A DNA stretch of 64,000 nt from Octopus sinensis (Eukaryota): the NCBI RefSeq assembly GCF_006345805.1, contig NC_043001.1, forward strand, positions 40,362,001 to 40,426,000. The letters run 5' to 3'. Below the pieces are notes generated by a model, which was not told the origin of the DNA, made no database searches, and was given only the letters and a program-made list of their open reading frames with translations. Both the position numbers and the translations under genes were made by a program. Shown here in pieces: positions 3,980-51,327 of this stretch (position 1 is its first letter; every line of letters starts with the position of its first letter).

Positions 3980-4019
<40 letters not shown>

Positions 4020-7773: not shown

Positions 7774-7809
<36 letters not shown>

Positions 7810-22752: not shown

Positions 22753-25423
22753 ATATCTGCACATCTGTTTCACCCTGCTATGAAAATTCATTTGTATAAG
22801 TAAATAAAGCAAGAATTTATAAAAACTCTTTTGCAACAATGAAACAGGACCTCTACCTAATTTTAGAGGCAATTGGTCAATGTTTTATTTAAGAACCACC
22901 TAATACAATGCCTGTAGCAAGTTTTAGACTTTTAATCAGCAGGCAGCCACCAATTCGAAATGACCTCAATTAAGAATTGGTGCACAAACAGAAGGCTTAT
23001 TGATATTAGCAATAAGTAGATTAAATGTAAGCAAAGAAGTGAGAATGTATATAATCCCTACTGATTCAGGTAAGAGAAAAACTAGAACATAAAAACTGAA
23101 GAATAAGGTGTACGAAAAACAATAATCCTCCAATGTAAGTCACTGTTCAGCTAGTAATGTACATGATCTTTACTTTGATCTGCAACATTTGTATCATTAA
23201 GTGCTACATCTTCCCAGATAACTATCAACATAACAGGTCTGAAAAGTGATGCAGTACTAATGAACAAACAGGCACTTTTAATAGGTGTACGCAACTGTGT
23301 GGAACATAGCACATATAGGTATACTTCCCTATATTGCATGTTATTCTACACTGAATTTATATGTCCAAAAAAAATCCCTGTAGTTTGTGTATTCGAAATG
23401 AAACATCCCCAGAAAACTTCAACTATATTCACTGCATGCAAGCTCTACCTGCAGAGACTTTCTTGTTCCCTTACCGGTTTATGAAAAAAGGCGTCTTAAA
23501 ACATGTAAATGAACACTGCACCTTATTTCATCACCCACCTCCACCTGTTATTGCAATTTTATCTGAAAAATGTACAAGCCTCTCCCGTTTCTGGCCTATA
23601 TAAAGAGCAGTTATCTAAAAAAAATGCACTCAGTGATGCAAGAAAATGCTCCACCCAATAATTTATGAAGTAGTTTGCAATAGGAAGGGCATCTAGCCAA
23701 ACACACATGAGCACCACTACCCAACATAAATGCAGACCATTGAAGAAGGCACAACATTAATCACAAAACAAATGCAACCTGCTAAAATACCCTAATCCAT
23801 TGGCAGTCTTGCCTTTATGATTAAATGCAAAATACCTTCCCACCTGTGCTGATTACTGACTTAAGCAGAATGTACCATCTGTTGCTGAGGACAGGAACCA
23901 ATATGACACATCGAGTTACCGATAAACCAACGACATATAAAAAACAACATAATGCTCTTGTCAGGGTACCCTTGCAGCAATTCCTAGTTTTACCTGATAT
24001 GGTAGTTGGCGTACCCATCTTATACATGGAATTGTACCTAAAGTGTATACCAAGCATACCTCTAGATATTCCTAAAGCTGATATACCGCTGGTTCCCTGA
24101 AGAAAATGCAGCCCCAAAAATATTGCAACTTACCAAGTTGCACACTTAAGCATCAACGAATTTAACAGTGTAGATGACACCACACTGGCAACTGATGACT
24201 GCCTTTTGAACTTGGATCTGCACACACATCAGTAAATCTAGACCAGCCAGTCAGACAAACTACCTTCATGGGCACACATGACAGCTCCAGAAAAATACAA
24301 GTGCTTCTGCAATTCATGAACCCATGCAATGTTTGCTTCAAACCACATATTAACAAAGCAATTTAGCTGAAAGAAAAAACAGAATTAAAAAAAAAAAGCC
24401 ACAACAGTAACATGAAGAACAAGACATTTGTGGTACACATGAAACCATTTATTCACCATCAGGAAGTATGAAGGAGGATTTATTTTTTGTAAGTTCCTTG
24501 CCACATACACAAGCCATTCAATCTATTTAAAACTTTGTATACAGTCCTCAGTGGCAAGACCAACAAGGGGCTCTCCTCATACAGAAGGCTGGGAAGGGGG
24601 GGACAAAACATAGAAATCAGGATTCCCATCACTCATGACGTTTTCAATACTATGCTAAAAAAAAGTTTTTTTATGTTTCTTTAAAGTAACCAATAAAGAA
24701 AAACATCTCGTCTAAACACTTGCAATTAAAAAATATATGACCCTCAAACCACTGTAAAGGGTTAAGAGAAACTTTAAAGTAACACCTGTAAAATACAGAT
24801 GTAAAAGGGGTCAAGTGAATTGGCAATGGGTCACCAACTTTAGGTAGCACAACGTGTTGTGCGATTGAAATTAGTCAAAGGGATACTACCCTATCCCTAG
24901 CAAAACCTACAAGGTATTTATTTACTTATAGGGTGGATGACAAAAACAAAAGAAAAACAAGTGATGATATTGTATTCTGTAAACAATGAAAAGGTAGCAA
25001 AAAGCTATGTTATCTGTGATGAAAGTTATGAGGAAATTTTTAAAAGTTAAGAAAGCACTGGCAGGCAAGTCCCCCCTCCCATTTTTCCATTTGCCGTCTC
25101 GTTGGCTGGCAGGCATGGTTGGAGAAGGAGGAATAGGGTAAAAGAAGCCAACTAATAATGCAGTCTACATGGAAAAATATAGTAAATGTTATTGGTTTCA
25201 CAACTAGCTACTATACTTAAGTATTGAAAACATCTTGTCAAGACGTTAAGGACAAGGATGGAAGGAAGAAAAAAAAAAACAATTAACAACTTATAATTTA
25301 TTGAGAACTCAAAAAAGATGATAGCAAATGATATGATCATTTATACATCTTAATGAAATGCCAACTAAATTAGCCAGAAATGTGCTAAACAGTACACTCT
25401 GTTCATAAGAGATTTTGCCAGAA

Positions 25424-25539
25424 TCATGACTCTGGTGCTACAGCTTCCTTCTCTTCAGTTTCTGTTTTTGATTTCTTAGATGGGCTGACATCGTCCCTTA
25501 TGAAGTCATCTGGGGCTCTTTTGCGCGGGCTGATCACAT
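25424..25539 (-). CDS. Acidic disordered nuclear protein (prothymosin/parathymosin- and Df31-like), last coding exon
   Basis: Acceptor ttcctcttcag; phase-1 join gives DVISPRKRAPDDFIRDDVSPSKKSKTETEEKEAVAPES* with bipartite NLS (RKR...KKSK); TGA at 25426-25424. Confidence 0.85.
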
Positions 25540-25736
25540 CTGAAGAGGAACAATAAGCTTCAGTCAAATATACCCCTTAAGTAGCGGCGAATGAAAAAAA
25601 AAAAAGTAAAATAAAGAACAAAAAAAAAAGTATGGTAGTGATGCGTGCGACATTCTGGCGAGGAGCATGAGGCTTAACCGCTCCGTACCGAACCAGGGAA
25701 CACCCACACCTCTACAGAACCAACCAACATACATAC

Positions 25737-25760
25737 CACACCACTTTCCATGTGTTTCAG
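25737..25760 (-). CDS. Candidate 24-nt frame-preserving microexon of the acidic protein gene (adds AETHGKWC)
   Basis: Acceptor tttctttgtattttcag and donor G|gtatgt; phase 1/1 fits between the flanking exons. Confidence 0.45.
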
Positions 25761-25831
25761 CTGAAAATACAAAGAAAAAAAGACATCCCTCTCCCAAAGC
25801 TCTTAAAGCAAAACGATAATGGCAAACTTAC

Positions 25832-26030
25832 CGTCTTCGTTCTCTTTCTCGTCGTTTTCTTTGTTGTTTGTCTCTTCTTTGTTATCATTACAATCCTCAG
25901 CTCCAGATTCAGATTTGTCATTCGACTCAGAGTCATCCGGCTGTTCAGAACTGTTTACTTTGTCGGAATCATCTTTACCGTCTTTTTTATCTCCAGTCTT
26001 GCCATCTTCAGCATTCTTTTCGCTCTCCAC
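25832..26030 (-). CDS. Acidic disordered nuclear protein, coding exon 3
   Basis: Acceptor cctgtttcag, donor G|gtaagt; 199 nt encoding VESEKNAEDGKTGDKKDGKDDSDK...KENDEKENED. Confidence 0.9.
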
Positions 26031-26141
26031 CTGAAACAGGTAGCAATAAATATAACAATTCACAAACACCGTAACCCCCACAAAAATAATAAGGTGTATT
26101 TCAATAAATGTGAGAAAAATCAACGTAAAACCAAATCTTAC

Positions 26142-26208
26142 TTCAGGCTTTTTATCATCTACTTTCTTGACAACTGGAGTCTCAACTTCAGTCTCCTGGT
26201 CATTGGTC
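26142..26208 (-). CDS. Acidic disordered nuclear protein, coding exon 2
   Basis: Acceptor tactttattcag, donor |gtaaga; 67 nt, phase 2 to 0, encoding (K)TNDQETEVETPVVKKVDDKKPE. Confidence 0.88.
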
Positions 26209-27882
26209 CTGAATAAAGTAAAATACTATAAAATAAAATCTATTCTCTATAAAGATCGATGCATCGCTAATACTCAGTTGCTGCTCTTAGCCGTTAGAAA
26301 GGAAAATAAAACCCCTTTACCCACCACAGAAATTATGAAGTATTTAATTCAATTACAAAGTGAAAAATCCGAATAATCTCAGATTCAAAATTAAATTTCT
26401 CTACAAAGCAAAACAAGCTTTGTTAGAGAAAGAAAACCGATCTAAATACAACGGCACCCTAGCCTAGCCGTTTCCTCTAACGAAACAGCAACACACTTGT
26501 ATGTTTGGCATTCTTTATTATAAACAAAACAAGCGAACAAACGGAACGAGGAAAAGAAATGTGTTAGTTAAGTAGTCAACTATTTCGGCGGCGGAGGCGG
26601 GTAAAACTAGAGATAAAAATTTGCCGGTAATAGAAGAGGTGGGGGGAGAACAGAAAGGAAAGAGTCAGTGGAAGTTGGAGGCAAGTGGTAGCGGCGGACA
26701 GGACCATTGCTTTGTGCAGATTGGAGAAGCTTTCAGCACCAGTCAATACAAAGTCAACGGTTGACTAAAGCCTCCTTACACAGCCTTCTCCTTATTTCTT
26801 TAGCCGAACTTTTTTTTTCAACACTCCCTGTCCCCTAACCTTATCCCAAGCAGATCCCCTCCTCCGCGCTGCTCTAACCCTCTCAATCGATCAGGACAGA
26901 GACGGACACTGTTTCAACACAGAGAAACGGTTCGACTCACCTACAAAGTTAAAAGGTGGTCGGGGCTTCAGGGAAACCATAGAAATGACAAAGCCGCATC
27001 TATCATTCATAGAAAAGCCACGTCGTTAACTGGAGCCAAAGAAAGAAAAAAAGAGGAAACCTGGAAATAACCATGGGGGACACACAGGTTAACCGGACAA
27101 AGACTTGGCTAGCATGGCAATCTTAACAGGGGAACGTGGAACGAAAATTAGTTTTCATTAAAAAAAAAAAGGGACCGTATATAATACTATATGTTAGCAC
27201 GCATTAATTCATATAAAAAATCAGATATCCACGGAAATTCCTCAAAATTTTTTTTAAAAATTGACTGAAGATTACCCCAAATTATATCCAAAGTTAATTG
27301 TAGGAATTTAGAGAAAAATGTAGGCGAAATATTTAAATTACATGACAAATTTATAGCAAGAGTTTTTACTTAGCCGCAGAACAAAAGAACCACCAACAAA
27401 TACTAACAACAAAAGTCAGGTATAAGATATTTAAGTTTTGGAAGACAACCTAGCGGGGAAACATTTCTTTTCATAAACCATTTAAATAATCATTTAAGAA
27501 TATATAGAAATATCATTTTTATAATAGGTAAATTTGCGCTTTTATCTCGTTCATTTTAAGAGAAATACACGGCAACGGCTAAGAAAAAGATCTGGAAAAT
27601 TAGCAAACTGATTTTCATTAATAACTTATGCTTCATGAAAATACAATTCCATTAATAAATCTTTATTATAGCACAATTCATTTAGATAGTAGTGATTTAG
27701 TGAAATAATAAAGATTTTAAATTCATAGAACAAATGGAGTCGACCATCATGGAAAAAAATAAAATTTACAATGGTATTTCAGAAAAATTGATATAAGTAA
27801 AAAAATGTTACACTAGAAAACAGAATAGTGTAATAATTTCATTGAAGTTTAGAGGAAAGGAAAAAATGAAAAATTTTCTTAC

Positions 27883-27896
27883 TTTGTGTCTGGCAT
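27883..27896 (-). CDS. Acidic disordered nuclear protein, coding exon 1 (MPDTK)
   Basis: aaatATGCCAGACACAAA|gtaaga; phase 2 matches exon 2. Four exons total 396 nt = 131 aa plus stop. Confidence 0.8.
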
Positions 27897-28130
27897 ATTT
27901 GTTGTATTGAGTGTGATTTCCCTAAGTAAAAATAAGAACGGAAAGCAAAATGCCGGCGAGATGTGAGAGAAGCTACTGATCTCACTGAAAGCAGACGATC
28001 GACTAGATTTGGCACAGCTTCCCGCCAACCGTAGCTGCCCGTGCCGGCCCCGTTCCTACTCGACGTTCATTGGCTGCTGTTTTCCACACGCAGGTGGCGG
28101 CACAAACAAGCATCGGTCACGTGCACAACT
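27897..28130. promoter_or_regulatory. CpG-rich bidirectional promoter and 5' UTRs shared by the acidic-protein gene (-) and COMMD9 (+)
   Basis: 234 bp between divergent ATGs; Inr-like TTCAGTG/ATCAGTA on - strand (27974-27989), E2F-type TTCCCGCCAA (28019-28028), CCAAT on - strand (28069-28073), E-box CACGTG (28118-28123). Confidence 0.8.
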
Positions 28131-28178
28131 ATGGCGACCACCAATCTACATTTCGAGGACTTGAAAATCTTACTACAG
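28131..28178 (+). CDS. COMMD9: COMM domain-containing protein 9, exon 1
   Basis: ATG...MATTNLHFEDLKILLQ|gt; resembles the human COMMD9 N-terminus (recalled as MAALTAEHFAALQSLLK); phase 0. Confidence 0.88.
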
Positions 28179-29569
28179 GTTTCCTCGATTATTTTTTTCA
28201 CTATTTTTTTTTCTAAATCCATACTAAAGATCCTCCATTTTACATACCGCATATTTTCCTTCGCAGCTATTTTTATAAATTTCCTGTTTGAATGCAATGC
28301 TTCCCCGATTTTAGTAACTTACTTTCATTCAAACTTTCGGATACGTTTCAAGTTTAATTTATATCAATAACATTTCTCAGTAAATTCCTTTCAATAAATA
28401 TGTAAAGAAATAAAATTATTAGTATCTTTTATTAGTCTTCGTTAACCAAGACAAATTAAAACTTCAATAAATAATTTAATAAAGATTCGGTCTCGCACCT
28501 GAATCCAGTATTCAAAGTTAGGCCTACTACTAATTGTGAGATAGACTAAATTATTAAATACAAATTAAGAAATCCTCGTTATTATTTTTTAACAGTAGTA
28601 GTAGTAACAGTATGAATTTAGAATGTTTATAACTTTAACAAGTAAAATAAAAAGTACTGCAAAGAATGTTATTCTTGAATTACGGCATGATTTTTGTGAC
28701 ACACCCACTTCTGATAGATAACCACCGCTGTTTAATATAGAATTAAATGTGTTCAATTCAATGGGTTTAAATTTAATTCATTCAAAACAACTCGGATTTT
28801 GAAAACAAACAATTCTCTTTGGGTATTTGGGGTAAAATAAATTATCCTTGTTCCGTATGAGTCTTGAGATCAGTGACATGTTCCAGTAGAAGTTTGATAT
28901 TTTTTCGACCCTTTTAGTAATAAGCTGAGTTTGATAGAATGACAGATTCAGATTTGCATACCTGTCCAACCCATTAGAAAACATGTAGCCAAAGAAAAAA
29001 AAAATCCAACTGTATAAACTTGATAGTGGCTAGTATTAAGATGTTAGTAATTCCAGTTACGAAAAACTAGATGAAGAAAACTAACAACTTAAAAGAGCAG
29101 CAGAAACCTTCAATTGTAGATCTTGCCAAATCAATAGCTGAAGATGCTTTTATTATTGTTTACTCATAACAGCTTATTGAGAAACGTGTAGCATTTGCGA
29201 AAAAAAATATTAGCATATTCTAATCAAGATATCTCGTATATGAGGTGCAGTTGTGTTGATGTGATTTCTATAAGTATTTTAATCCTCTAATGAAAATGAA
29301 TATATGAGGACTGAATTATATATATATTGAAGTTCCTTTTTATGAAGTTAAAAGGGCTGCTTTGCGGACTTTTTCAGCATCTAATTTTCATGTATAGTTG
29401 TTTATAGTATCAATTCTGTGACATTGTAAAATGGTATTTTCAAATAATAACACACTTGTTTGCAAATTTTTTTTTCTTTTACTTTCGATTAATCTATCCG
29501 TCTCCTTTAGCCCCAAATTTACAGTATGCTTATCTAAGATTTATCCTTAATGGTTTTTCATGAACATTA

Positions 29570-31260
29570 ACCAGTGATGTAACAGCATCGCTATAAAGCT
29601 CCTAAAGTACACCAAAATAACAGTAAGGTCAATGATTGAAATAATACAGAAAGGTAAGACAAGACAAATAGCTTCTCAGAAGAGAGACCAGAAATGTAAT
29701 GACAAAATGCAGATAGCTATAATGCTTTGGGACAACATGAGAGAAAGTTAGAATGGAGTAAAACTGTTAGTAAGAAACTAAGAATGGACTGTCACTGAAA
29801 CACTATGAATGGTTGAAAGTGTTGTTGGACAGGGTAGAGATTTCAGGAAAGTCTAAAAGAAGTTTCCTTAAGGTTGGAAACTATTGATCAACATTCTAGA
29901 AGCCAGTAAGAAGAAAGGAGTTTTTACCAAGAGCTGTATTCATCTAATCAACAGACGAAGGATGAAACTGTACATAAAATTGCAGATATTCTACAAGTAG
30001 CCATAAAAGGAGTTGAAAATGCTATCACTACCAGGAAGAAAGGCAAAGCTCCAGGCACAGATAACATCATTATCCTTCTTTGAGATATCTGAGAATTAAT
30101 CCTTAAAAAATAAGCCAACTTTTCTATGACCCGACTGAAACAAGAAAAATACTGAATAAATGAAACAATACCATCACAATCCTGCTTCACAGGAAGTACA
30201 ATGCAAAAGACACTACCAAATTTTAGCCCTATCACCTCTATAAAATGTATCACTGATAGAATTAAAACTCTTGACAAAAATCAACCACGAGAACATGCAG
30301 GCTTCAGTAAAGGCTATTCCTTTCTTGGCTACAAATAGGCCTTTGACTCAGTAGAAATTGAACTAATCATTATAGCCCTCAAACAACAAAAAATTTACAA
30401 TGATTCTAATCATTCATATGATTACTCAAATCTGAACTACTCCAGTTGGAGAAAGGAGTCTAACAAGATGATACAATCTAATCAAGAATCTTTACAGCAT
30501 GTCTAGAATAAGGTTTTTGCTAGCAAGGTTGTGAATTAGGATTGATGGAAATACCCATGTCATTTGAGGTTTGTCCATGATATCCTACTTTTTGTCAGCA
30601 GTCTGACTAATTGCATGTTGTACTGAATGATTTCAATAAGAGAAGCAGTCAGCTTCCTCATGAACTAGAGGAAAATTCAAGTGATGGCAAATGAAAAAGC
30701 AGACAAAGAAACCTAGGAATAAGTTTGAGTATAAGACCATTGAGCAATCTGCTCAATGGTCTTCTATTCAGTAGATGCATTAAAACCACTGGATAATGTC
30801 TGCTGAGGTCAGTGCAGCTGAGCAATGCTAGCCATGGATGAAGAGATCACAGTGAAGCGGCAGTCATTGGGTTGATCTCATACCATCCTTAAAAACAATA
30901 TTTCCTTGATTCTAAACAGAAGAATACATAATGAATATATATTATCAACAGCCATATACAGTTCAGAGACCTAGAATTAGATTAAAAAGAGACACTTTAT
31001 GTGTACCCTATGGCCAAATGCAATTAGTTCATGATCGACAGGAGAACAGCATAGTGTGTACGGAAGCAGGTGGGAACCCACAGCATTCTGAACGGTAAAG
31101 CAAGGTTAAATGGAACTAGGAAGGACAGATTGCAGATAGACCACTGGAAACTAGAAATGATGCCAAGGTCATCAATGGATCTGGTGATGAGATGATCTTA
31201 ACAAATTCAGACCAAGATGGTGGAAAGAAGCATAAGATGAGAGCATGCGACGTCTGGTAA
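29570..31260 (+). mobile_element. Heavily decayed RTE-clade LINE in COMMD9 intron 1
   Basis: Residual motifs KKGKAPGTDNI, NQPREHAGF, AFDSVE, KGV*QDDTI, HLRFVHDIL and YSSET*. Confidence 0.8.
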
Positions 31261-31499
31261 AGGATTATATAAGTAGAAATTGCTTAGAATAAGATACCTG
31301 ACGTAGAGAGGTGGGGGTCACTAAAATTAGTTGTTGAACCTATTTAATGTGAAAGTTTACATATGTATGCATACATCATCTTTTTTTTTCTTCATTCTGT
31401 CGTTAGATTGTGTAGTGGGTGGAGGGAGTTTATTATTTTATACTTTCTCTTGTGGCTCAGTCTGTCTATTACTATGTGTGTGGCTTCTGTAGTTTGTTT

Positions 31500-31700
31500 T
31501 ATGTGTTGATAGTATCTTAACTGAACCTCCATGTTCTAATTGAGAATGTTGGTAGACCACTGAAGAGCTTTCCTCTCTGAGCTTCTACCAGGGTTCACCT
31601 CTCTGCTCACCTGTGCTATGTGCTGTCTCCCCAATGTATGTTGTTACCCTGTTTCTGCACAAGTCCTTCAGTACATCTAATACTATAGACTACATTTCTT
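31500..31700 (-). mobile_element. Penelope-like GIY-YIG endonuclease remnant
   Basis: Minus strand reads CRNRVTTYIGETAH...SSVVYQHSQLEHG. Confidence 0.55.
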
Positions 31701-31732
31701 ATGTGTGTGTATGTATGGAAAGAGAGAGAAAG

Positions 31733-31960
31733 TATGTGGCTTAGTTTTTTGGGTGTTGCATTCATGATCTCAAGATCAAAGTTTCAATTCCCAGACTAGT
31801 GGTGCATTGTGTTCTTGAACAAAGCACTTCATTTTACATTGCTCTTGTTCACTCAGCTGTAGTTGGATATCTAGTGATGGACTGGCATTCTGTTCAAGGG
31901 GAATGTTGACCAGCCCACCTAGCTAACTAGATAGCATCATACAATTCAAGGAGACACGTT
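31733..31960 (+). mobile_element. tRNA-derived SINE, second family (related to 52259 and 63870)
   Basis: TGTGGCTTAG...GTTTCAATTCCC head followed by TTGTGTTCTTGA...TTGCTCT/CCAGTTCACTCAG shared with the other copies. Confidence 0.65.
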
Positions 31961-33001
31961 GTGACCAGCATTGTGTAACAACATCCAATAATCTAGTTGA
32001 TACAATGATACTCAATGTGACCGTGTGTGTACCGTTGGCGATTTTTTTCCTCTGTCTTCCCTTCTCTAGATCTTTCCTTCTATGTTTCTGACAAAGTGCT
32101 CCGCTCAAAACGTTAAACCCTCCTTCTTTCCTGAGCGTCCAATAATACTATATTTGTTCCACGTCCTCGCGTTGTTGTGTTTTTTTGTGCTTTCATGTTT
32201 GGATTAACTATATATATATATATATATATGTTTGTGTGTATGATCATTTAACAATCCATTTTCCATATTGACATTAGTTGGTCAGTTTGAAAGAATCTAA
32301 TGAGTCTAGAGAACAGTGTCATGCACCAATGGCAGCTTTGGCATGGTTTTCTATACCTGGATACCCTTCCTAATGCCAATTACTTTACAGAATACTGAGT
32401 TTTTTTGTGTGTGTGTGTGTGTGTGACATCAGCACTAAAAAAATTCTTTTGTAATATGTGGGAGTCACATTATGTTAGGTGTTGGGCTGTTGAAGCTTGA
32501 TTGAAGAGACAAGAACAAGTTTCTTCCAGTATCTCAAAAGATGATCACTAGAGTTTATCAGGGTTCAATATGTGTCTACTTTATGTATGATCCCTAGATT
32601 GCCATTTTAGATCAATACTGCTTCCATCACTAATAACAAAATTTGATTCAACTTTCCTGCTAATTGTGACATCAGTGATTGAAAAATCACTGTTTTCCTA
32701 TATCAGTAGTGGCTAATTTTATCTTACCATATTGTTATTAGAGGATACTGAAGTTGTTACTGAAGTGGGAGAAATACATATTTAACAATGCCACTACTGC
32801 TACTGATATTTTTCTGTGTTTCTTAACACTATGCATTTATAAAACAATACTACAGTTTAGCAAACTTTCAACAATGTGACTACTTTAAGTACAATACACA
32901 GATTGCTCTTTTGAACTAATACTGTTCTGTTTCCATCACTCAGAACAAATATATATGTACTTGTATGTGTGTGTGTATATATATATATATGTATGTGTGT
33001 G

Positions 33002-33036
<35 letters not shown>

Positions 33037-33039
33037 ATA

Positions 33040-33390
33040 GGCACAGGCGTGGCTGTATGGTAAGAAACTTGCTTCCCAACCACATGGTTTTGGGTTCAGT
33101 CATACTGTATGGCACCTTGAGCAAGTGTCTTGAACTATAGCCTCAGGCCAGCCAAAACCATGTGAGTGGATTTGGTAGACAGAAACTGAAAGAAACCTGT
33201 TGTGTGTGTGTGTATTTGTCTCCCCCCCATCACTTCACAGCAGATATTGGTGTGTTTACATCTCGTAACTTAGCGGTTCAGCAAAAGAGACCAAAAGGGT
33301 AAGTACTGGGCTTACAAAAAATAAATCCTGGGCTTGATTTCTTCAACTAAAACCCTTTAGTCAAATGACTGAAACAAGTAAAAGAATATA
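33040..33390 (+). mobile_element. tRNA-derived CORE-like SINE
   Basis: GGCGTGGCTGTATGGTAAG...GGGTTCAGTC...GGCACCTTGAGCAAGTGTCTT; tail GTCAAATGACTGAAACAAGTAAAAG. Confidence 0.88.
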
Positions 33391-33396
33391 TATACA

Positions 33397-33750
33397 GGTG
33401 CAGGAGTGGCTGTGTGGTAAGTAGCTTGCTTACCAAGCACATCGTTCCAGGTTCAGTCCCACTGTGTGGCACCTTGGGCAAGTGTCTTCTGACCAAAGCC
33501 TTGTGAGTGAATTTGGTTGATGGAAACTGAAAGAAGCCCATCATATATATATATATGTTTGTGTGTCTGTACAACATCGCTTGACAACCGATGCTGATGT
33601 GTTTATGTCCACGTAACTTAGCAGTTCAGCAAAAGAGACTGATAGAATAAGTACTAAGCTTACAAAGAATAAGTCCTGGGGTCGATTTGCTCGACTAAAG
33701 GCAGTGCTCCAGTGTGGCCACAGTCTAATGATTGAAACAAATAAAAGAAA
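33397..33750 (+). mobile_element. tRNA-derived CORE-like SINE, tandem neighbour
   Basis: Same head, internal microsatellite and tail as the preceding copy. Confidence 0.88.
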
Positions 33751-34351
33751 AATATATATAATCATCATCATCATTTGATATCTGTTTTTTATGCTGACAT
33801 GGGTTGGATGGTTTGACCACAGCTGGAGAGCTGTACCAGGTTCCAGTCTGATTGGCTTGGTTTCTAAGGCTGGATGCCCTTCTTGTCACCAACACTCACC
33901 TGTTTCCAAGCAATGTAATATTTTTTCATGGCCAGGCATGTTTTTGCAGAATATTGGAAATGTGTGACACTTTTTGTGTGACTGGGATACTCATTTACAA
34001 TTATCACAAGATGAGATGCTAACACACATCCATATATAGATAGTAGAAGACACTTGCCTAAAACGCTACACTGGGGCTGAACCCAGAAGCTTTTTGCTGA
34101 GAAGCCAACTTCTTACCACAGCTACACCTACACTTGTATACATATGTGTGTGTGTGTATGTGCATATATTTCATGTTACACGAAGAAGCAGTGTACTGGA
34201 GTCAAATATAACAAAATTGCTTTAAATCATTGTTGGAGTATCTGCATAAGTGGAGCCTGGAGTGGCTAGTTTGTGCTTGCATCAAGTTGTATAAGTTGTA
34301 ATAATGAAGTCAAACCAAATAGTGATAGTTTGAAATAATTAAATATATACA

Positions 34352-34639
34352 TTTCAGGTTTGTGTAATATATAATAGGAAATGCATAAATTACATAAGGC
34401 CTTCGTCAGTTAAAACATTTCAAAATATGAACCAGTTGATGGAAATATTTCAATGTATATGGTCAGAGAGTACTCTCTTTCTATTACATATTTGTCCTCC
34501 TAACTTTGTTGCTGACTCATTGCTCTTACCAAATATAGTGAAATATTTCCATCAACTGGCTTATATTTTAAAATGTTTTGACCAAGGAAGGTCTTAAACT
34601 ATGGCTACATTTCCTATTGCATATTGCACAGACCTGAAA
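34352..34639. mobile_element. MITE-like inverted repeat (~120-bp arms)
   Basis: 34352-34470 pairs with 34520-34639; perfect 21-bp core CCAGTTGATGGAAATATTTCA (34432-34452) / TGAAATATTTCCATCAACTGG (34539-34559). Confidence 0.75.
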
Positions 34640-36952
34640 CATCATCATTTAATGTCTGTTTCCCATGCTGGCATGAGTTGGACAGTTTGACAGGAGCTTG
34701 CCAGCTGAAGAGCTATCTAGCGTCCATGTTTGTTTTGGCATAGTTTCTACAGCTGGATGTCCTTCTTCACACCAATGACTTTACTGAATGTACTGGGTGC
34801 TTTTATGTGGCACTTGTACTCATGAGCCCACAAGATTAGTATCACTCAGCTGAAGAGGGATGTAGGGGACATGCCTACCTGTAAGGAAGGACAGTCACAA
34901 TTTTACTTAGTTTTCTGGTTTAAATATTAGCTTCTATTTTTCTGTAATAATAACATGGGTGGTATGTTTTTGCAATTGGTTTCTTCCTAATATCAATTAT
35001 TGTTTATATTAAGCCTTTCATATTCCTGTTGCAATTTAATAAGTACACTCTAAGGTGGTTTTTAATGCTCTTAGTGACTTGGATATGGAATGTGTTGTTA
35101 TATTTAACCTTGGCCATTTACTTATAAAACGAAAATGTTATGTATCTAGTGTGAGGCAAATAGAAAAATGTCACTTTATTCAAGTCATGAAACAATAGAC
35201 AATTTATATCTGTACTTAGTGGTTCCTCTCTGTGCTACATTCAGTATTATCTCATACTTACTATTGGTTAAAATGAAATATCAAATGTTTGTTGAATACT
35301 TTTGAGATTGTGTAAAAATCTAACACATATTAATATCGAATGTATATGTATTTTACTAAACATTAGATAATATATCTTAAATATAAAAAGAAACTGTCTG
35401 CTTGTGTGTGAAGGCATGTGGGTCCATTTTTTGTGGCTCATCAGAGAAACATGTTTTAAACTTGGTCTAAAGCAATATCTAAATGCAGAGTAGCATAGAA
35501 TTTTGGTTTTGGCATCATAATTTAAAAGATATGAAAATAAAACTATTTACAAAAGTATAGTTTTCATATTTTACAGAAATAATTCAAAAGGTAGATCCTG
35601 TGAATATGCCTCTTTTCTAGATTTTTAATGCTTTAGTTAGAGAAGAAAGAGCTGTATCTACAACCATTTTCAAAATCTCCAAGACTATTGTGTGGAAATT
35701 ATTCTCAGACTAGAGACTTGGCCTGATTACTTGCAGTGAAGAAGACTCTGCATAAAGGCATCCATGGGCCCAGTTCTGTTGTTTGGCTGAATAACAAACT
35801 AGATTCATCACCCCAAACAAGAACAGTCACTTTGATGGGCTTCCACATGACCTAGCAAATTCTATTCAAGGCTTTTGTCAACCTGACTCCATGGTAGGAG
35901 ACAATTGCTCAAGGTGTTATACACTGGAATCAACATCCACAATTTTTTATCATACTATAACTGGCAGTAAACTACCTACTGAATTTTGAAAACAAAACTC
36001 ACTTGCATAATTCTTTTTATTTATATTTTGCAAAGTTAATCCATTTCACTACCACCATCAACCCAAAAGAAAAGAAACAAATTTGTTACATATATATGAT
36101 GTTCTCCACAATGCATATATCTGATTCTTTTTAAATTATTCAGTGGATTTCTTACTTTCATTACTTATTTTTGTCATAGCTTCAACATAAATGTCTTCAC
36201 TGAATTTTTTTACAAGCTTTCGTTACTTATATCACTAATACCATCAACAAAGAGCTTTAAAATGTAGTTATCAAATCTCTAGAATCTAAACTAATCTAAT
36301 AGTCTAGTATGTTCTATATCCACAGTGCAGAACTTGTGGGTTACTACTAAACATTTACTTGATTAACTCTGTGCCAGCTGAGCACAGGTGATTGGAGCTA
36401 CACAATAGGATATATCAAATGACTTGCGAATGTCAGTTTATATTTCTAGCAAATAATTCTCTTTGTCAGATAGTGTAACAATAGCTTAATCCTATCAGTG
36501 AATTGATTTGAAAAGTAAGAGAAGCAAATTTTAAAGGCCAAGAAAAAAATTAAGAAATTTGTGGAAAATAAACAGAAAGTAGTGATATTTCGCAAACATT
36601 TGTTATGTAAACAAGAAGGCTTGCTTTTGATTTTGGTGTTTTTAGATATGTATGAGATAATAAAAAAAACAACTTTTTTTTAGAAAAATGTCATCTCTGA
36701 GCGCTACTTCAACCTCCTTATACTATATTCTCTATGCACAAAGTTACTATGTATGTCCCCATTGTGTTCACCATATATTTTGTGTATATGTCTAATCTCT
36801 GTTTAGTGGTATAATGCAGCATATGAATATAAACATCATGCTAAAATACAAAAGTAATTCAACACATGTATTATGTGAAGTAGTTTAAACTTGGAGTTAA
36901 AACAAAGCTTCAAATTTCAACAATGAAAACTAATGAAAGATGACCTTATATA

Positions 36953-37743
36953 CAGGGTATTCAGGCTAAATTTGACAGTTTGCATAAAAGGAAAAAGAAA
37001 ACACAGTATTTTTATCCAAAAATAAAGTATTTTTTAAAAAATCAAAGATCATCAACTAGATTGTGGCTGGGAGATAACAGTTAACTCAATATAGCTGCCT
37101 TCAGCTTCTACCACAGCATCAAGATGGCTCTGGAACCTGATGCATTCCTCATTGTGTCCCTCTTCAAACAGCTACTTGATCTTGGTTACCAGCTCAGTCT
37201 TGGTATTGCAGACAGAACAGTTGGTCTCTTTACCAACTGTGCCCCACACATAGTAATCCATGGGATTACAATTAGGGAGGTAGGAATTTTGGCTGGTGAG
37301 GGCATTGAAATTCTCTAACTCTTTCCAGATACTGCTGCAACCTTCTTCAGCCAGGAATTTCAAGCATCCTTCAATAGCTTCACACAGCCATCTGAATTTT
37401 GCCTAAAACCCTATTCAAAGATGTTGAAATGAATTCTGGCATGCAGGCACAATCAGAATGCCAGCTATGTCCCTTCATGCTAACCATAGCTTCACAGTCT
37501 TTGTTGCAACTGTACAGTGTTAGCAGAGCATTGAGCAGCAGTCATAATCTCAGCATTTTGATATTTGGCACAAATCATGATAGAAATAAATCTTTTCCAA
37601 TATTGAGATGGCTTCCTCTCATCCATGTCAGCTAACTTTTTCTCAACTACAACTTTAATCTTTATGCTCTCCAATACTGTTGACCGTTCACCAATACATC
37701 AACCTGTTCCTGAAACAACATCAAATTTAGCCTAAACATCCTG
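36953..37743 (-). mobile_element. Internally deleted Tc1/mariner-superfamily (maT-like) element
   Basis: TIRs CAGGGTATTCAGGCTAAATTTGA / TCAAATTTAGCCTAAACATCCTG with TA flanks; remnant PNCNPMDYYVWG (SPDLNPLDYYVW-type). Confidence 0.85.
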
Positions 37744-38346
37744 TATTTAAAGATTAATAACATTAGTTGGAGTGGTAATGGTGGTGGTGATAGTAGAAGC
37801 AGCAGTAGCTGCTGCAATTTTATGGAGCAAATCAGCAACTTCATTTTATTTCATACTCTTGTTTAGGAAATGTCTTGGTTTACATTTCTAAGTAATGTTC
37901 TGCAGAACATTTGTATCTTGTTTTGCAAAAAAAATTTTTAATGAGTCATTTAAGGTAAAGTTTGGGTGTATATGATTTTATGAAAAAACATTATTTCCAA
38001 TATTACTTTATACATTATCTCTGACTTCCAAAAATATTGATTTCTTACATTGGTTCATCCAGGTAATCAATTGAAATAAACCACATTCATAATGCTTATT
38101 TTATCAACACCAGAGAGGGGTGGAAGATATGATCCTAGCAGGATTTAGATTCAAACACATTTGGAGTTCTGTAGTTTCCATATCTACAGCACCATTCTAA
38201 AACAAATGTTTCACAAATGAATGCAATGATTTTCATTGATTAAAATTTCCAAATTATCCTTTTATAAAAGGAGTTTAATGATCTTGAAAATATTTCTGAC
38301 TTTCAATTTTGTTTTCATTCTCTTGTTGTTTTTTTCTTTCTTACAG

Positions 38347-38475
38347 TGTCCTAGCAAAGATATTGTGATAAAAATTTGTAATGATATCATGAAATTCTCT
38401 GGACTAGGATCACCTGAACCCCAGTTAAAACTCATAGAATGTTCACTTAAAATAGATAAAAAACAGAGTGAAAAC
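38347..38475 (+). CDS. COMMD9: COMMD9 exon 2
   Basis: ttctttcttacag|CPSKDIVIKICNDIMKFSGLGSPEPQLKLIECSLKIDKKQSEN|gtaagt; 129 nt. Confidence 0.9.
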
Positions 38476-38784
38476 GTAAGTACATACTTCATTTCACTCT
38501 ACAGCACTAGAAAAGTCGTTTTTTTTTTTTGTTTGTTTGCTTTTTTTCTTCACATTTTGACCATTTTTTTCAACAATACTGAAATTGTAAAATATTAACC
38601 ATATCAAACTAACCTATCTGTCTAATGCTAATAATAATTTTTTTCTTAACTTTTTCATAACCATGTTTCTAATAAAATACACTACCTGTGAATTTGACTT
38701 CTGAAAATAATGATGTATTTGAAAATATTTAGTAAAACAACGTTTGGAACATAGTTGAACAAAAATATTGGTTTCAAATTTTTG

Positions 38785-38980
38785 GCACAAGATCAGCAAT
38801 TTTGGAGAGTGGGTAAGTTGATTACATTGCCCCTAGTGTTCAACTGGTACTTATTTTATTGACCCCAAATGAACGAAAGGCAACATCAACCCCAGTGCTA
38901 TTTGAACTCAGAATGTGAAGTCAAAAGACATGTTGCTAAGCACTTTTTCCAGCACAGTAACAAATCTGTTAGTTCGCCAC
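38785..38980 (-). mobile_element. Nin-domain-type tRNA-derived SINE
   Basis: Reverse of GCCTTTCRT...GGGGTCAATAAAATAAGTACCAG; same family as 62630-63070. Confidence 0.7.
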
Positions 38981-39619
38981 TTTATAATTGAGCAAAGTAT
39001 TATAAAATTATGATGGAAGCTTTTAAGTGTGACAGCTTTAAAACAGGCAGTTTTCTATCACAAAACAAGACATTTTCAAGCAGATTGGTGTCAATAGGGT
39101 ATTTTTTGTTCATTTAGTTTGATCAAACAGTTAAAAACAATGTCTCTCTTAATCTTTCTCCCCATTTTCCATTCTGTGTATGATGTAAATAAATATGTGT
39201 GTATACCTGTGAAAACCTGACTAAATTATCATAATTCAAAACATGCATAAATATAGTCTTTTTCTATTATAAAGATAGTCTTTTTCATTTGCTGACATTC
39301 TAAGCTTTTGTTTGTTTTATGTACCATTGAAACCATTACTTCAGTGCATTTTTATAATTTTTTTGCAAATGTTGCATGTTTTATCTATTGAAATAAGACA
39401 TTAAATTATATAGAAAATTATGCTTGAAGACATTATACAAATTCATACTGCTAAATCATACTCAGATCTCAAAGCATTGAACTTTTTTTTGTATACTTTG
39501 AATTGTACAATAAAAAGAGGCATCAAACTATAAATTATAAAAAAAAAGTGAGGTACTTCTGGGGTCTTTTTTTTTTTAACCCTTTATTTAGCATTCAAAT
39601 TACTATCTCAAAATTTAAT

Positions 39620-40250
39620 GCTTCGGAGTTCCCATTGACAACCACTTTTAAACTTCTCTGTGAGCCTTGATGGACTCCTACCCACGTGCTGAATTCGTCA
39701 TTAAAATCATTCTTACTCTCACTTATTGCATCTTTGAACATAGCTTGTACAACCCTTACAAACCATTAATCTATTTATAGTTTTCTTAATGACCTCCAAA
39801 TCACTGAAGGTGTACCCTGTCAAACGCCTTCTCCAAGTCAATGAATGCCAGAAATAATGGTTTGCCAAAAATGCCTTCCTTATTCTGAATACATTTCTCA
39901 CCAATGACCGTATATCACTCTCACAAACTGTATTACAATCCTGAACACTTCAGCTTCATGCGACAGCTTCCTTTTCTACTTCCTTCTTAGTAAAAGTATA
40001 CCTGTCGCCTGGCTACTATTCTAATTTGTAATGCTCCCTACTGCAACCTTCCTTTCAAGTTTTCCGAGTGTGTCATTTAGCTTCCGCTGCACTATCAACT
40101 GTATCATTCCACCATAACGTTACTTTCAGCATGGCTTGACTTTGCCTCAGCTAAATGTCTGATCTGTATATTTAAGTAGGTTATTTCGTAGAAATTCCCT
40201 TTTATTATCTATACTACACTATCTGATAATTCTCCATACAATCATATGCA
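39620..40250 (-). mobile_element. Decayed RTE LINE fragment
   Basis: Minus strand GGAGTCCATCAAGGCTCA = GVHQGS RT motif; surrounding sequence degenerate. Confidence 0.5.
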
Positions 40251-42089
40251 TCCATCTCTATATGTTATTACTTAATTATGAATACTAAGTGGGTGAGAGG
40301 AAATATCTTTTAAACTGTCAGAACTATTCTGCTAGAAAATATGTACTTACCAACTAAGTCTCAAAAGGCGTATCACAGCGCACTGGTGCGTTGTTGGAGT
40401 ATCTAGATGCTTCGGGGATTTTTGTAAAATATTATTTAAGGCTTTAAGACTTGAGCGTCTAGAAAAGCGTGTTTATTATTTTCTTACACAAAAGTATAGT
40501 TAATATAACGAGGTAATAGTTTTCTGTAGTTCTAAATTTTTGATTTTCCATATGAAGTCAGTAATTTCATTTGATCACTAGTGTGACACAAAGTCAAAAT
40601 GTTTCAGAACCACTGCATTAGATACGTATATTATTTATATTGTTTAAGTTAAAGGATATCAAAGTTAATCAAAGAAAATCAAATAGTTTTGATCTCTCTT
40701 AGATCTTTATTGATTTTTATTTTCATAGGCACAATACTCTGTGGTTAAATATATCTTGCATAATAAAACATTATACTGAAGTTACTCTAATTACCAAGTC
40801 AATATGCTGTCGTTTTTAACTCAGATAATAAGTAGCTAAACAAGAACAAGTTGTTTTAGTGCAATTTTCGGTGGGCTTTTGGAATAGCTATCACTACCTT
40901 ACAGAAAAGGCAAAGGTTACGAATTGGGTTTTCAGAATCACTATTTCTATTGTATAAAATACAGGAATGTATATATTAAAATTAAAAATTTAAAAAAAAA
41001 CACCAATTCCTCGTCATTTTCCGTCACCATCTGATTTCCTACTGAATTATTATCCTCTACTCTTCTATTATGAACCTTTTCTGAAAATAAAGAGTTTAAT
41101 CCATCAGAGTACGCACTCAGATCCACTCTTTTCACATATTGTTTTACTACAGCAATTATGCTCAATTCCATAATTAAAAAAATATTTATTTTTTACAAAT
41201 AGTGGTCTCTAAATTACATCCATTATCATTAAATTATGCTGTAAAATATAGTAAATTCACGGCGTCATCAACCTTATCTCGATTTCTAGCTGCGGCGATT
41301 TCACCTCACACACACCGTACATGTATTAAGAAAGACAATGAATTCTGTTCTCCTTTCTCTGGAGACACTATGACTTTGCCCATTTTTAATCAGAGTAATA
41401 AATGGATTAGGTTTTTTTTAGCTCCATTTGTTCCACATTTTATTATACAGACACTTACTCATATATACATACTTTTCTGTGATAATGTATTTAAACTGTA
41501 TGCTTAGGACATGGCCAATATTGACTTCTTTTGACTAAGCTCAAAGTTTCTGATTAATGTCGGGAAAATTGAATATAATGTTCATTTCTTTTCTGTAACA
41601 CAATAATCTAAACGAAGCATAATAGCTTCAACCGGAAATTGGAATCGTGTCATGGACTCGGCTCGTCAAGATCTTATCTTCAGTATTTGTCTTTTGAACA
41701 TTAGTTTTGAGCGTATTCCTTGATTGTTTAATACTTGACCCATTAAAGCATAAAGTTTATTTAATCTAATAATTTTCTGATTGTTCTGTTTTTTGTTTAA
41801 GCATTAATGGATTGAATATTATTCACTTTTGATATCTTTTATGTAATAAATTCACCATAACTCTGAATAAAAGCCCTTATTGCGAATGGTCTGTAGTTTT
41901 ATATTAAGTTCTACTTGCTACCCCTTCACGTCTCGTTATATCTTTCTTATCCTTTCAATCTCATATTGTTCACATACGTATTTGTACAGTTACTTATGCT
42001 ATTAACCTTTTGCAATGTTATATCCTGGTTTATATATCTCTGATTTACTCACTTATGAAGTATCACTCACTATGGTGTGCGTGACTTAT

Positions 42090-42180
<91 letters not shown>

Positions 42181-42313
42181 GTGTGTATATATATATATGT
42201 GTGTGTATATATATATATACATATATATGTGTATATATATATATATATATACATATATATGTGTATATATATATATGTGTGTATATATATATATACATAT
42301 ATATATATGTGTG

Positions 42314-42360
<47 letters not shown>

Positions 42361-42385
42361 ATGCACGCACACACACATACACATA
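42090..42385. repeat. Compound (TA)n/(TG)n microsatellite
   Basis: Seen directly. Confidence 0.95.
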
Positions 42386-42616
42386 GACACGTTCGAAGCT
42401 ATTCCTCACATTCTTTGCTATGTGTGATCTTTCGGGCTACAAGAGATCACGCATCGTAAGAAACTCCGATCAGCGACAGAAGAAACGAATAACTTTGAAC
42501 GAATAAGCTGCTCATGTGTGTTTAGAATTTTATTTTTTTCCTAGTTTGTACCTCAAGTGTGTGTGTCCCCGTCCGAAAAGAGGCACACTCTAAAAATTAG
42601 AGTAGTGATATTTAGA

Positions 42617-42781
42617 AGGTCGTTTGTTATGGCGGGTCAGAGTGACCATTGGTTTCGCACCTATAAAGCGCTTAGTTGTATAGGTGATTGGGCAAACTCA
42701 AATGGCTGGAAGCACATCATGGACAGTTAATTTTGTAAACAAAAAAGGGTCACTCTATGACCGGCCGTAACAAACAACGTT
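42617..42781. mobile_element. Small MITE-like element with ~30-bp imperfect TIRs
   Basis: GTCGTTTGTTATGGCGGGTCAGAGTGACC at left versus GGTCACTCTATGACCGGCCGTAACAAACAAC at right. Confidence 0.65.
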
Positions 42782-45700: not shown

Positions 45701-46570
45701 TTCGACTAAAAAAGTGAATCACATTAATGTAAAGTGGTTGTAGGATTCTTGTTTTATTTGGCTTTGTGCTTAGTCAGTGCACAAAAATTCAAAACGATAA
45801 AAGAAAAGAATTAATTTTTTTAGTCATAGGTCAGTATATGAATATGATGATTAAAGAGCTTTGGAGCCGTGATCATACCTTCGTTTTTCTTTTTTTTAAG
45901 GTATAGTGTATCTTGGACCATATTATTCCTGAATACACACTTGTCTTTATTTTAAAGACAATTGGATGTGATTTCGGAGAGATTTTGGCTGTTATTTCTA
46001 GCAGATCCCTCTTCAACTCCAAAGCCTTTAATGTTATATTATTTGTCTTCACTTAATTGTTACTGTTGAAAATGAATTGTTTATTAATTAGAATTAAACT
46101 GAATTTAGCGTCTTTTCTCAATATAGTATTTTGGCGCCTAAATGGCTATATCCGGCTCAAGCTGTTGATTTTTATTTGTGTATTGAAAATGTAGTCATTA
46201 TCGCTTTTGCTGTCTTAGTCTTAACAACGAGTTATTAGTGTTATGAGAATGAAAATTTGTGTTCTACTTGAAGCACGCTTTATATATCATGATGTGTTGT
46301 TGATGGTATTTGTCATATTTTATTGATTTCTGTCGTCTCGTTTAAAATCGATCATTTTTTTTTTCAAAATCCAATAGAAGACAAAAGGAAATCCTTAAAA
46401 TATAGTTTCATTTCTGGTCTTAAAAAAACGGACATCGCTTTACTTTTAAAATCAGAATATCTTTTATATAGAAGCCAGTCAAACTGACAATAGAATTTTT
46501 TTGGCGACAATGTACCTGAAACCAAAGATCGCCGATTTTTCAAAATTTGATTCAGAAATAGGGACAAGCG

Positions 46571-46604
<34 letters not shown>

Positions 46605-48174: not shown

Positions 48175-48312
48175 GAGGAGTCGTGAGCAAACTGCGGCCC
48201 GCGGGGCTTTCTGAATAGCATGGGTAACGAAAAATTAGCTTGAATATTTTTTTCCAGTGCAGCCAACTTGATGATGCGGCTCGCTTCTGGAGAAAGGTTG
48301 CCTATACTTGCT
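48175..48312. mobile_element. hAT (Charlie-like) MITE remnant
   Basis: GCAAACTGCGGCCCGCGG at left and GCGGCTCGC...AAAGGTTGCCTATACTTG at right resemble hAT-Charlie termini. Confidence 0.6.
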
Positions 48313-48433
48313 GAAGTATTTCGTGATGAATGCAAGAATAGGTATATTTCTCACGAAATGTCTCTCATCGAAGTGAGAAGTACCAATCCAGTCATAATCT
48401 CTTTTATGACCAACTGCCTTCTTTTTATTTCAG

Positions 48434-48518
48434 CTTTACATAGCTCTAAACCTGTTGCTGAAGAAAGCAATTTTCGCTGACACTCAAAACCCCGAGGTGT
48501 TACGAAAGCTTTTTCCAG
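48434..48518 (+). CDS. COMMD9: COMMD9 exon 3
   Basis: ttttatttcag|LYIALNLLLKKAIFADTQNPEVLRKLFP+G|gtaagt; 85 nt. Confidence 0.9.
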
Positions 48519-49930: not shown

Positions 49931-49961
<31 letters not shown>

Positions 49962-51237: not shown

Positions 51238-51327
51238 CAAATTTTCATAATAATTTAAAAGAACTTCTAGTGAAAATCATCATAGACAATTATTCGAAAT
51301 GGAGAGAAGCATCTATAAAGAATCAAG
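51238..51327 (+). CDS. COMMD9: COMMD9 exon 4
   Basis: ttttttcag|(A)NFHNNLKELLVKIIIDNYSKWREASIKNQ+G|gtaggt; matches the COMMD9 FPENFHQNLKNLL...WR segment. Confidence 0.95.

What the first reader, a model, noticed from the sequence alone, without database searches (positions are those of the whole stretch)
25424..27896. Prothymosin/Df31-like acidic disordered nuclear protein in an invertebrate: possible link between two families
The spliced product is MPDTKTNDQETEVETPVVKKVDDKKPE-VESEK...ENED-DVISPRKRAPDDFIRDDVSPSKKSKTETEEKEAVAPES (131 aa; by my count 44 D/E versus 23 K/R, one aromatic residue). Its C-terminus KRAPDDFIRDDVSPSKKSKT parallels the prothymosin-alpha bipartite NLS (KRAAEDDEDDDVDTKKQKT). 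Its N-terminal ETPVVKKV and C-terminal KR...VSPSKKSK parallel Drosophila Df31 as I recall it (ETPVVEKV; KRK...VATPEKKAK). Prothymosin/parathymosin is generally regarded as vertebrate-restricted and Df31 as insect-restricted, and both are acidic disordered chromatin-decondensing, histone-binding proteins. A mollusc protein with features of both would suggest one ancient bilaterian family hidden from BLAST by low complexity. The comparison sequences are from memory, and homology is inferred.
Basis: partly seen in the sequence, partly recalled or inferred. Interest (0 to 1): 0.8.

Follow-up and report, generated by a model that had tools for sequence, protein, structure and literature searches.

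The report
Prothymosin-like acidic nuclear protein gene
This is a real, spliced, single-copy animal gene for a small acidic protein that is predicted to be unfolded and nuclear and likely buffers histones as prothymosin and fly Df31 do, but common ancestry with either is possible rather than shown.

Summary
The gene is real. Four coding exons give 131 aa (44 D/E, 23 K/R, one aromatic); all three introns are spliced in public contigs, one of which holds the whole mRNA. It is single-copy, head-to-head with COMMD9. Seven unnamed relatives or fragments were found; the best kept part is a C-terminal bipartite nuclear signal with a CDK-type site (S-P-x-K) on each basic half. The homology claim stays open. 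For: a language-model search with a full-length relative returned only prothymosin-family clusters among its named top hits (0.86, a lead only), first an arthropod cluster; a 7-of-8 N-terminal match to Df31 (about 1% by chance). Against: no Pfam prothymosin hit; motif matches fall to p about 0.06-0.07 once a nuclear signal is assumed; the Df31-like word is altered in the relative; an out-of-order 7-of-7 match shows such words arise by chance; charge density is 40% of prothymosin's; five recalled vertebrate neighbour genes lie on other contigs. Verdict: likely works as a polyanionic nuclear chaperone (0.55); prothymosin homologue about 0.3; three-way family with Df31 about 0.2.

The parts
27883..28044 (-). 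Exon 1: 148-nt leader without ATG plus first 14 coding nt (ATG at 27896); 5' end is the end of a contig, not a mapped start
26142..26208 (-). Exon 2 (67 nt): carries the Df31-like word ETPVVKKV; skipped in a minor form
25832..26030 (-). Exon 3 (199 nt): mixed-charge, net acidic D/E/K/N/S spacer; variable in length among relatives
25424..25539 (-). Exon 4 coding part: S-P-R-K-R, 13-residue acidic linker ending S-P-S, K-K-S-K (predicted bipartite NLS with two full CDK consensus sites, S97 and S112), acidic tail, TGA
24437..25423 (-). 3' UTR of about 1 kb with AATAAA at 25302, 24922, 24484, 24453; a longer minor form may run to about 23500 (one run)
26941..27029 (-). Minor alternative exon in intron 1: donor at 26940 is joined to exon 2 in two runs; its 5' edge is inferred; as a cassette it would shift the frame and stop early
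28019..28131 (.). Likely bidirectional, CpG-rich promoter shared with COMMD9: E2F-type site 28019-28028, CCAAT near 28069, CACGTG at 28118 (motif names recalled)
28131..53373 (+). Head-to-head neighbour COMMD9 (ATG 28131, exon 1 ends 28178 and is spliced to the exon near 38350; COMM-domain exon 53260-53373; gene end not mapped)

Best explanation
The gene is a spliced single-copy gene whose 131-aa acidic product is predicted to be fully disordered and imported into the nucleus, where it likely acts as a flexible polyanion that binds histone tails or linker histone and eases their exchange on DNA, as prothymosin-alpha and Df31 do. Shown: gene structure, transcription, composition, single copy, conservation of the C-terminal motif in relatives. 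Inferred: (1) the two basic clusters of exon 4 bind importin-alpha; (2) the two S-P-x-K sites that sit on those clusters are CDK targets that tune import or chromatin release in the cell cycle, which fits an E2F-type site at the transcript start; (3) the acidic body binds basic nuclear proteins by charge alone, more weakly than prothymosin and more like Df31, since net charge per residue is -0.16. Whether it shares ancestry with prothymosin or Df31 or converged on the same design is left open.
For: Splicing and whole mRNA. 51% charged residues, mean hydropathy 0.28 against a folding boundary of 0.47; a single-sequence model of relative P0002 has no helix of 4 or more residues and no strand, pTM 0.13 (weak on its own). 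Exon 4 is 68-71% identical to P0001-P0003 while exons 2-3 align at about 44%: both basic clusters, both S-P-x-K sites and the spacing are kept in 3 of 3 intact relatives that cover them. Language-model features of P0002 (residues 33-138) are nearest to prothymosin/parathymosin clusters, 10 of the 10 best named hits in that family; an abstract argues that shared features of disordered regions predict shared function without sequence likeness (PMC6634968, abstract). Prothymosin binds H1 by charge without a specific site (PMC7661507, passages); Df31 binds H3 tails and snoRNA (PMC3547006, section 7). Net charge per residue equals that of Df31, -0.16.
Against: No binding or localisation data exist here. 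The protein is a polyampholyte: longest acidic run 3 residues, best 30-residue window net -10, net -21 against -44 for prothymosin, so strong H1 binding is doubtful. The linker of 13 is at the long end of the classical 10-12 (recalled). The Atlas score 0.86 is below the tool's 0.9 line, a third of shuffled proteins also get 10 of 10, and exon 4 alone gave no usable hit. The E2F-type site occurs once in 64 kb, but 13 of 100 shuffles also have one, and it may serve COMMD9.
Confidence: 0.55

Rival explanations
1. It is a true, deeply diverged homologue of prothymosin/parathymosin (and perhaps of Df31): one bilaterian family hidden by low complexity. Compatible with the function in the best explanation; this is the ancestry claim.
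For: Atlas ranks 1-3: an arthropod-dominated 'prothymosin alpha family protein' cluster (PF03247 in 43% of 70 members), chordate parathymosin and a chordate prothymosin cluster, 174-178 shared features, where 170 or more is seen in 9 of 10 same-family hits against 1-2 of 10 chance hits. Same layout and size: short charged N-terminus, acidic body, C-terminal bipartite NLS, short acidic tail. DDV-x2/3-KK-x-KT-E/D agrees with the printed prothymosin C-terminus, p about 0.045 in window and relative. ETPVV-x-KV agrees 7 of 8 with Df31, 1.1% of 4000 composition-matched nulls, 0.05% if both must lie in the first 30 residues. Relatives P0002, P0003, P0006 carry E-N-G, a word repeated in prothymosin (N-G three times) and Df31 (five times) (counted by eye).
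Against: No PF03247 match at E<=10 for exon pieces or for P0001-P0004; PF03247 does not pick this locus in the genome, though only 2 candidates were scored. Exon 4 against 1.84 billion representatives gave 4 hits at E<=1e-3, all close and unnamed; the profile search gave 7 of 7998 candidates, same group. With the KKxK fixed, motif p rises to 0.06-0.15. The Df31-like word is changed in P0002 (p 0.17). P0002's last residues match prothymosin residues 19-25 7 of 7 (p 0.0004) out of order, so such words arise by chance. A baculovirus polymerase NLS has the same KRK-acidic-SP-KRR design (PMC6893576 table). The window protein has no N-G. Families of five genes recalled as neighbours of vertebrate PTMA/PTMS lie on C25, C4, C3, C3 and C12, none on C5. 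Human PTMA is recalled to have an intron between the two NLS halves; here both lie in one exon.
Confidence: 0.3
2. It is a lineage-restricted, heat-soluble charged protein with a general shielding or anti-aggregation role in the nucleus (Hero-protein-like, recalled), or an RNA-binding spacer as described for Df31 and HMGN5, rather than a histone chaperone.
For: Mixed K and D/E throughout with weak net charge; the middle varies freely in length among relatives; only the NLS region is conserved; no distant relatives found. Df31 and HMGN5 bind RNA (bioRxiv 10.1101/2022.07.15.500188, passages).
Against: Conserved CDK-type sites and linker residues suggest regulated, specific partners; nearest feature neighbours are prothymosins, not generic charged proteins. 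Net negative charge argues against direct RNA binding, although Df31 has the same net charge and binds RNA.
Confidence: 0.25
3. The exons are not an independent protein-coding gene (piece of a longer gene, or a non-coding transcript with a chance frame).
For: The exact protein was not found in the protein collections.
Against: One contig holds the whole spliced transcript; frame, intron edges and stop position are kept in relatives (P0001, P0003, P0006 and P0007 read through the same exon edges); none of the 19 and 16 listed substitutions lies in a coding exon (weak, about 1-2 expected).
Confidence: 0.02

Closest known systems
Prothymosin-alpha / parathymosin (Pfam PF03247)
   Same: About 110-130 aa, disordered, acidic, C-terminal bipartite NLS with an acidic linker ending DDV..KKxKT; nearest family by language-model features.
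   Different: 34% D/E and net -21 against about 50% and -44; no long acidic run; one Cys and one Phe; no D-D-V-D caspase-type site, S-P-x-K sites instead; no thymosin-alpha1-like N-terminus; no Pfam match; no shared neighbours found.
Drosophila Df31 (decondensation factor 31)
   Same: Disordered nuclear-type protein, net charge per residue -0.16 in both, N-terminal ETPVV-x-KV, C-terminal KR...[S/T]P-x-KK-x-K.
   Different: 183 aa and 21% Ala against 131 aa and 4% Ala; NLS linker longer in Df31; five N-G words against none; the N-terminal word is not kept in relative P0002.
Arthropod cluster auto-named 'prothymosin alpha family protein' (ESM Atlas, 70 members, 132 aa)
   Same: Top feature hit, same length, invertebrate.
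   Different: Members could not be fetched or aligned; only 43% carry PF03247; score under 0.9.
HMGN5 / HMGN family
   Same: Disordered, acidic, chromatin-opening; proposed counterpart of Df31 at 30% identity.
   Different: No HMGN nucleosome-binding core (R-R-S-A-R-L-S, recalled) in the sequence and no HMG14/17 Pfam match.

Membership tests
Prothymosin/parathymosin | Match to Pfam PF03247 above its cut-off | tested here: not met
   No match at E<=10 for exons 2, 3, 4, the exon 2-3 frame, or P0001-P0004 including full-length P0002; locus not picked in the genome search. The spliced window protein itself was not scanned as one piece, and HMMER's filters can drop biased sequences.
Prothymosin/parathymosin | About 50% Asp/Glu, pI 3.5, net -44, no Cys or aromatic residue (PMC9496091, PMC7661507 passages) | tested here: not met
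   34% D/E, pI 4.3, net -21, one Cys, one Phe, longest acidic run 3.
Prothymosin/parathymosin | Intrinsic disorder over the whole chain | tested here: met
   Predicted only: charge-hydropathy far on the unfolded side; no structure elements in the P0002 model.
Prothymosin/parathymosin | C-terminal bipartite nuclear localisation signal | tested here: met
   KR-x13-KKSK at residues 100-118, kept in P0001-P0003; motif only, function untested; also common in unrelated proteins.
Prothymosin/parathymosin | C-terminal caspase site that removes the NLS (PMC4774093 passages; D-D-V-D as the site is recalled) | tested here: not met
   Window has D-D-V-S, relatives D-D-I-S or D-D-M-S.
Prothymosin/parathymosin | Thymosin-alpha1-like N-terminal segment | tested here: not met
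   A 7-residue word from it scores p 0.22 in the window protein and matches the relative only at the wrong end; no thymosin chain among PDB hits.
Prothymosin/parathymosin | Remote homology by language-model features | tested here: inconclusive
   0.86, top three hits and 10 of 10 named hits in the family, with a relative as query; exon 4 alone gave nothing; no shuffled control of this query could be run.
Prothymosin/parathymosin | Shared gene neighbourhood (COPS7, PDE6D, DIS3L2, MLF, TPI; neighbours recalled) | tested here: not met
   0 of 5 families map to C5; neighbour here is COMMD9. Weak, since gene order is often lost over this distance.
Prothymosin/parathymosin | Shared intron positions | not testable with these tools
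   Window phases 2, 0, 1 with both NLS halves in exon 4; the PTMA exon layout is recalled only and appears to differ.
Prothymosin/parathymosin | Binds linker histone H1 and decondenses chromatin | not testable with these tools
   Needs biochemistry.
Df31 | Sequence similarity above composition-matched background | tested here: inconclusive
   N-terminal 7-of-8 word 1.1% in nulls, but random Df31-composition sequences reach a mean ungapped score of 54 against 35 for the word; not kept in P0002; C-terminal word p 0.04-0.15. Full-length pairwise alignment not run.
Df31 | Moderately acidic, Ala/Glu-rich disordered chain | tested here: inconclusive
   Net charge per residue equal (-0.16); Ala 4% against 21%.
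Df31 | Binds H3 tails and snoRNA, keeps chromatin open | not testable with these tools
   PMC3547006 section 7; needs biochemistry.
HMGN | Nucleosome-binding core motif (recalled) and HMG14/17 Pfam domain | tested here: not met
   Motif absent from the translation; no such Pfam hit.

The most novel reading that the evidence does not exclude
Vertebrate prothymosin/parathymosin, insect Df31, the auto-named arthropod cluster and this mollusc protein descend from one bilaterian gene: a disordered polyanionic histone chaperone whose only lasting sequence trace is a CDK-gated C-terminal nuclear signal, with vertebrates having swapped the CDK sites for a caspase site and pushed the charge to the extreme.
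Probability: 0.2. Interest if true: 0.7.

Novelty: new variant of a known kind. Interest (0 to 1): 0.42.

Why it matters
Prothymosin-alpha is the model case of a chaperone that binds by charge alone, and papers still treat it as a vertebrate protein (PMC9496091, passages). If an invertebrate line of homologues exists, its origin moves back to the bilaterian ancestor, Df31 genetics in flies becomes a model for prothymosin, and the family becomes a test case for tracing ancestry among disordered proteins. No paper in the held library mentions both Df31 and prothymosin (0 papers; subscription journals mostly not held). If it is convergence, it is an ordinary but undescribed nuclear protein, with a conserved NLS carrying two CDK-type sites as its one specific handle.

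Tried and rejected
Word-index protein searches with the exon 2-3 frame and with exon 4 found nothing; the collections seem thin in animal proteins, so blanks are weak, and I could not check that prothymosin or Df31 are in them. Two metagenome scans: 596 and 594 pattern matches, none confirmed. PDB sequence searches: only chance hits. Atlas with exon 4: no usable hit. Pfam hits of the exon 2-3 frame to membrane families come from the translated hydrophobic intron 2 and were set aside. The idea that D-D-F in the linker is a DEF/Y-type H2A-H2B binding word (recalled) was dropped: the Phe is Val or Ala in the relatives. No Rfam match above chance in 23500-29000 (2 matches, E 0.42 and 0.85). No listed run is on record as RNA, and contig depth cannot rank genes, so high expression is only a hint. 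No paralogue in the genome. A Pfam scan of 150 of 1000 stop-to-stop frames, picked by composition, found only transposon pieces besides this gene. Paper searches listed no study of an invertebrate prothymosin gene by title or abstract start; four wanted papers were not held. No complex prediction was sent: a charge-driven disordered complex would give no meaningful score. Earlier scan notes: none on this gene; six on unrelated prokaryotic acidic microproteins, not used.

Full report
1. Observation. The region 25424-27896 holds four minus-strand coding exons with GT..AG introns of phase 2, 0 and 1. Contigs of public runs show the three joints at the predicted places: in the first four runs intron 1 in 3, intron 2 in 3 and intron 3 in 2, with matching loose ends in the rest; in the next four, two show all three joints and two, without joints, look like DNA. 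One 1529-nt contig runs from 28044 through all exons into a 3' UTR that would end just past an AATAAA at 24453. The leader has no ATG. So the gene stands alone and is transcribed. It is single-copy and lies head-to-head with COMMD9, whose ATG is at 28131.

2. Relatives. Exon 4 against 1.84 billion representative proteins gave 4 hits at E<=1e-3; a profile search added 3 more, 7 of 7998 candidates. None carries a name, so their taxa are unknown; at 68-71% identity in exon 4 they are probably other cephalopods (inference). P0002 is a full-length spliced relative, 105 aa from its own start. P0001, P0003, P0006 and P0007 read through the same exon edges and stop. What is kept is the block S-P-R-K-R-x-P-[DE]-[DE]-x-I-[KR]-D-D-x-S-P-S-K-K-x-K-T and the final P-E-S; the middle varies in length. 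P0004, P0005 and the two further members of P0005's cluster have exons 3 and 4 joined and a decayed motif, as retrocopies would (inference).

3. Anatomy. Half the residues are charged and hydropathy is far below the folding boundary; a single-sequence model of P0002 has no structure elements. Net charge is -21, or -0.16 per residue, equal to Df31's and 40% of prothymosin's -44 over about 110 residues. The chain is a mixed polyampholyte: the longest acidic run is 3. Exon 4 has KR-x13-KKSK, a bipartite NLS-type motif, and each basic half carries a full CDK consensus, S97-P-R-K and S112-P-S-K, kept in 3 of 3 intact relatives. The shared promoter is CpG-rich and has the window's only E2F-type site, at 28019 (13 of 100 shuffles have one, so a hint only).

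4. The prothymosin and Df31 comparison. Tested with short motifs against composition-matched nulls: the prothymosin C-terminal 10-mer scores p 0.047 (window) and 0.044 (P0002), rising to 0.07 when the KKxK of an NLS is held fixed; the Df31 C-terminal word p 0.04-0.15; the Df31 N-terminal word matches 7 of 8, which 1.1% of 4000 nulls reach (0.05% if both lie in the first 30 residues), but P0002 alters it (p 0.17), and the comparator was chosen after the fact. An inner control warns against such words: the last residues of P0002 match prothymosin residues 19-25 exactly (p 0.0004) though they cannot be in order. An outer control: a baculovirus polymerase NLS has the same KRK-acidic-SP-KRR design (PMC6893576, table). 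Pfam PF03247 did not match exon pieces or relatives. Five gene families recalled as neighbours of vertebrate PTMA or PTMS map to other contigs. On the other side, the Atlas feature search with P0002 returned, as ranks 1-3, an arthropod-dominated cluster auto-named prothymosin alpha family protein, chordate parathymosin and a chordate prothymosin cluster, at 0.86 with 174-178 shared features and 10 of 10 named hits in that family. The tool calls this a lead only, features of an acidic chain with a C-terminal NLS could give it without ancestry, and exon 4 alone gave nothing.

5. Mechanism. Most likely (0.55) the protein is imported by importin-alpha through exon 4 and acts as a flexible polyanion that shields histone tails or linker histone and eases their exchange, as prothymosin does with H1 by charge alone and Df31 with H3 tails; CDK phosphorylation on the two basic clusters would tune import or release. 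Gene structure, transcription and motif conservation are shown; localisation, phosphorylation and binding are inferred. The lower charge density predicts weaker binding than prothymosin's. Rival function: general shielding or RNA-linked spacer (0.25). Ancestry is a separate question: prothymosin homologue about 0.3, three-way family with Df31 about 0.2.

6. What is in print. No held paper names both Df31 and prothymosin. Searches listed no study of an invertebrate prothymosin gene; I saw listings and abstract starts only for most. PMC9496091 (passages) describes prothymosin from mammals to fish. A 2024 paper title reports prothymosin-alpha detection in mussel sperm (seen only in reference lists; not held). 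HMGN5 has been proposed as the human counterpart of Df31 (bioRxiv 10.1101/2022.07.15.500188, passages). Automatic annotation already names an arthropod cluster after prothymosin, so invertebrate look-alikes are not unheard of, but I found no study of their ancestry. Also read: PMC3547006 (passages and section 7), PMC6838902, PMC4604154, PMC13590183, PMC10675086, PMC10636164 (term searches), PMC6634968 (abstract).

7. Verdict. A real, apparently undescribed acidic disordered gene that works like prothymosin/Df31 by prediction and fails the membership tests that could be run (Pfam, composition, caspase site, neighbours), so it is not filed in either family. Interest 0.42; 0.7 if the single-family reading holds.

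Noticed in passing
window 28131-53373 (+): COMMD9 gene head-to-head, ATG under 90 bases from the 5' end of the acidic gene's longest spliced contig; 10-kb first intron; COMM-domain exon at 53260-53373.
   Followed up: partly
window 26031-26141 (-): Intron 2 is 111 nt, in frame and stop-free; if retained it would insert 37 mostly hydrophobic residues. Relative P0003 also reads through at least 18 hydrophobic codons of this intron while exons 3-4 are joined. No retained form was singled out in the runs; probably chance from T-rich intron sequence.
   Followed up: partly
window 26941-27029 (-): Minor alternative exon joined to exon 2 in two runs of organism B; as a cassette it would shift the frame, like a poison exon. 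Exon 2 skipping seen in one run.
   Followed up: partly
proteins P0004, P0005, P0008, P0009: Decayed, intron-less copies of exons 3-4 in other samples, as retrocopies would look; P0004 has the motif twice in tandem.
   Followed up: no
G000:C6:48876765-48876831: 67-nt piece 97% identical to the start of this gene's 3' UTR on another contig.
   Followed up: no
G000:C3:129.5 Mb and C3:149.0 Mb: MLF-family and DIS3L2-family exons, recalled as neighbours of PTMS and PTMA, both lie on C3; if a closer prothymosin relative exists in this genome, C3 is a place to look.
   Followed up: no
printed sequences in PMC4822317 and PMC7661507: Df31 and prothymosin share repeated N-G words, mostly E-N-G (five and three N-G, counted by eye); the window protein has none, its relatives one.
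   Followed up: no
window 1616-1912, 4165-5218, 5777-6721, 9440-10009, 59845-60060: Broken mariner/Tc1-type transposase and LINE-type reverse transcriptase pieces; long (TA)n/(CA)n simple repeats near 3750-4100, 7200-8600 and 42000-42450.
   Followed up: no
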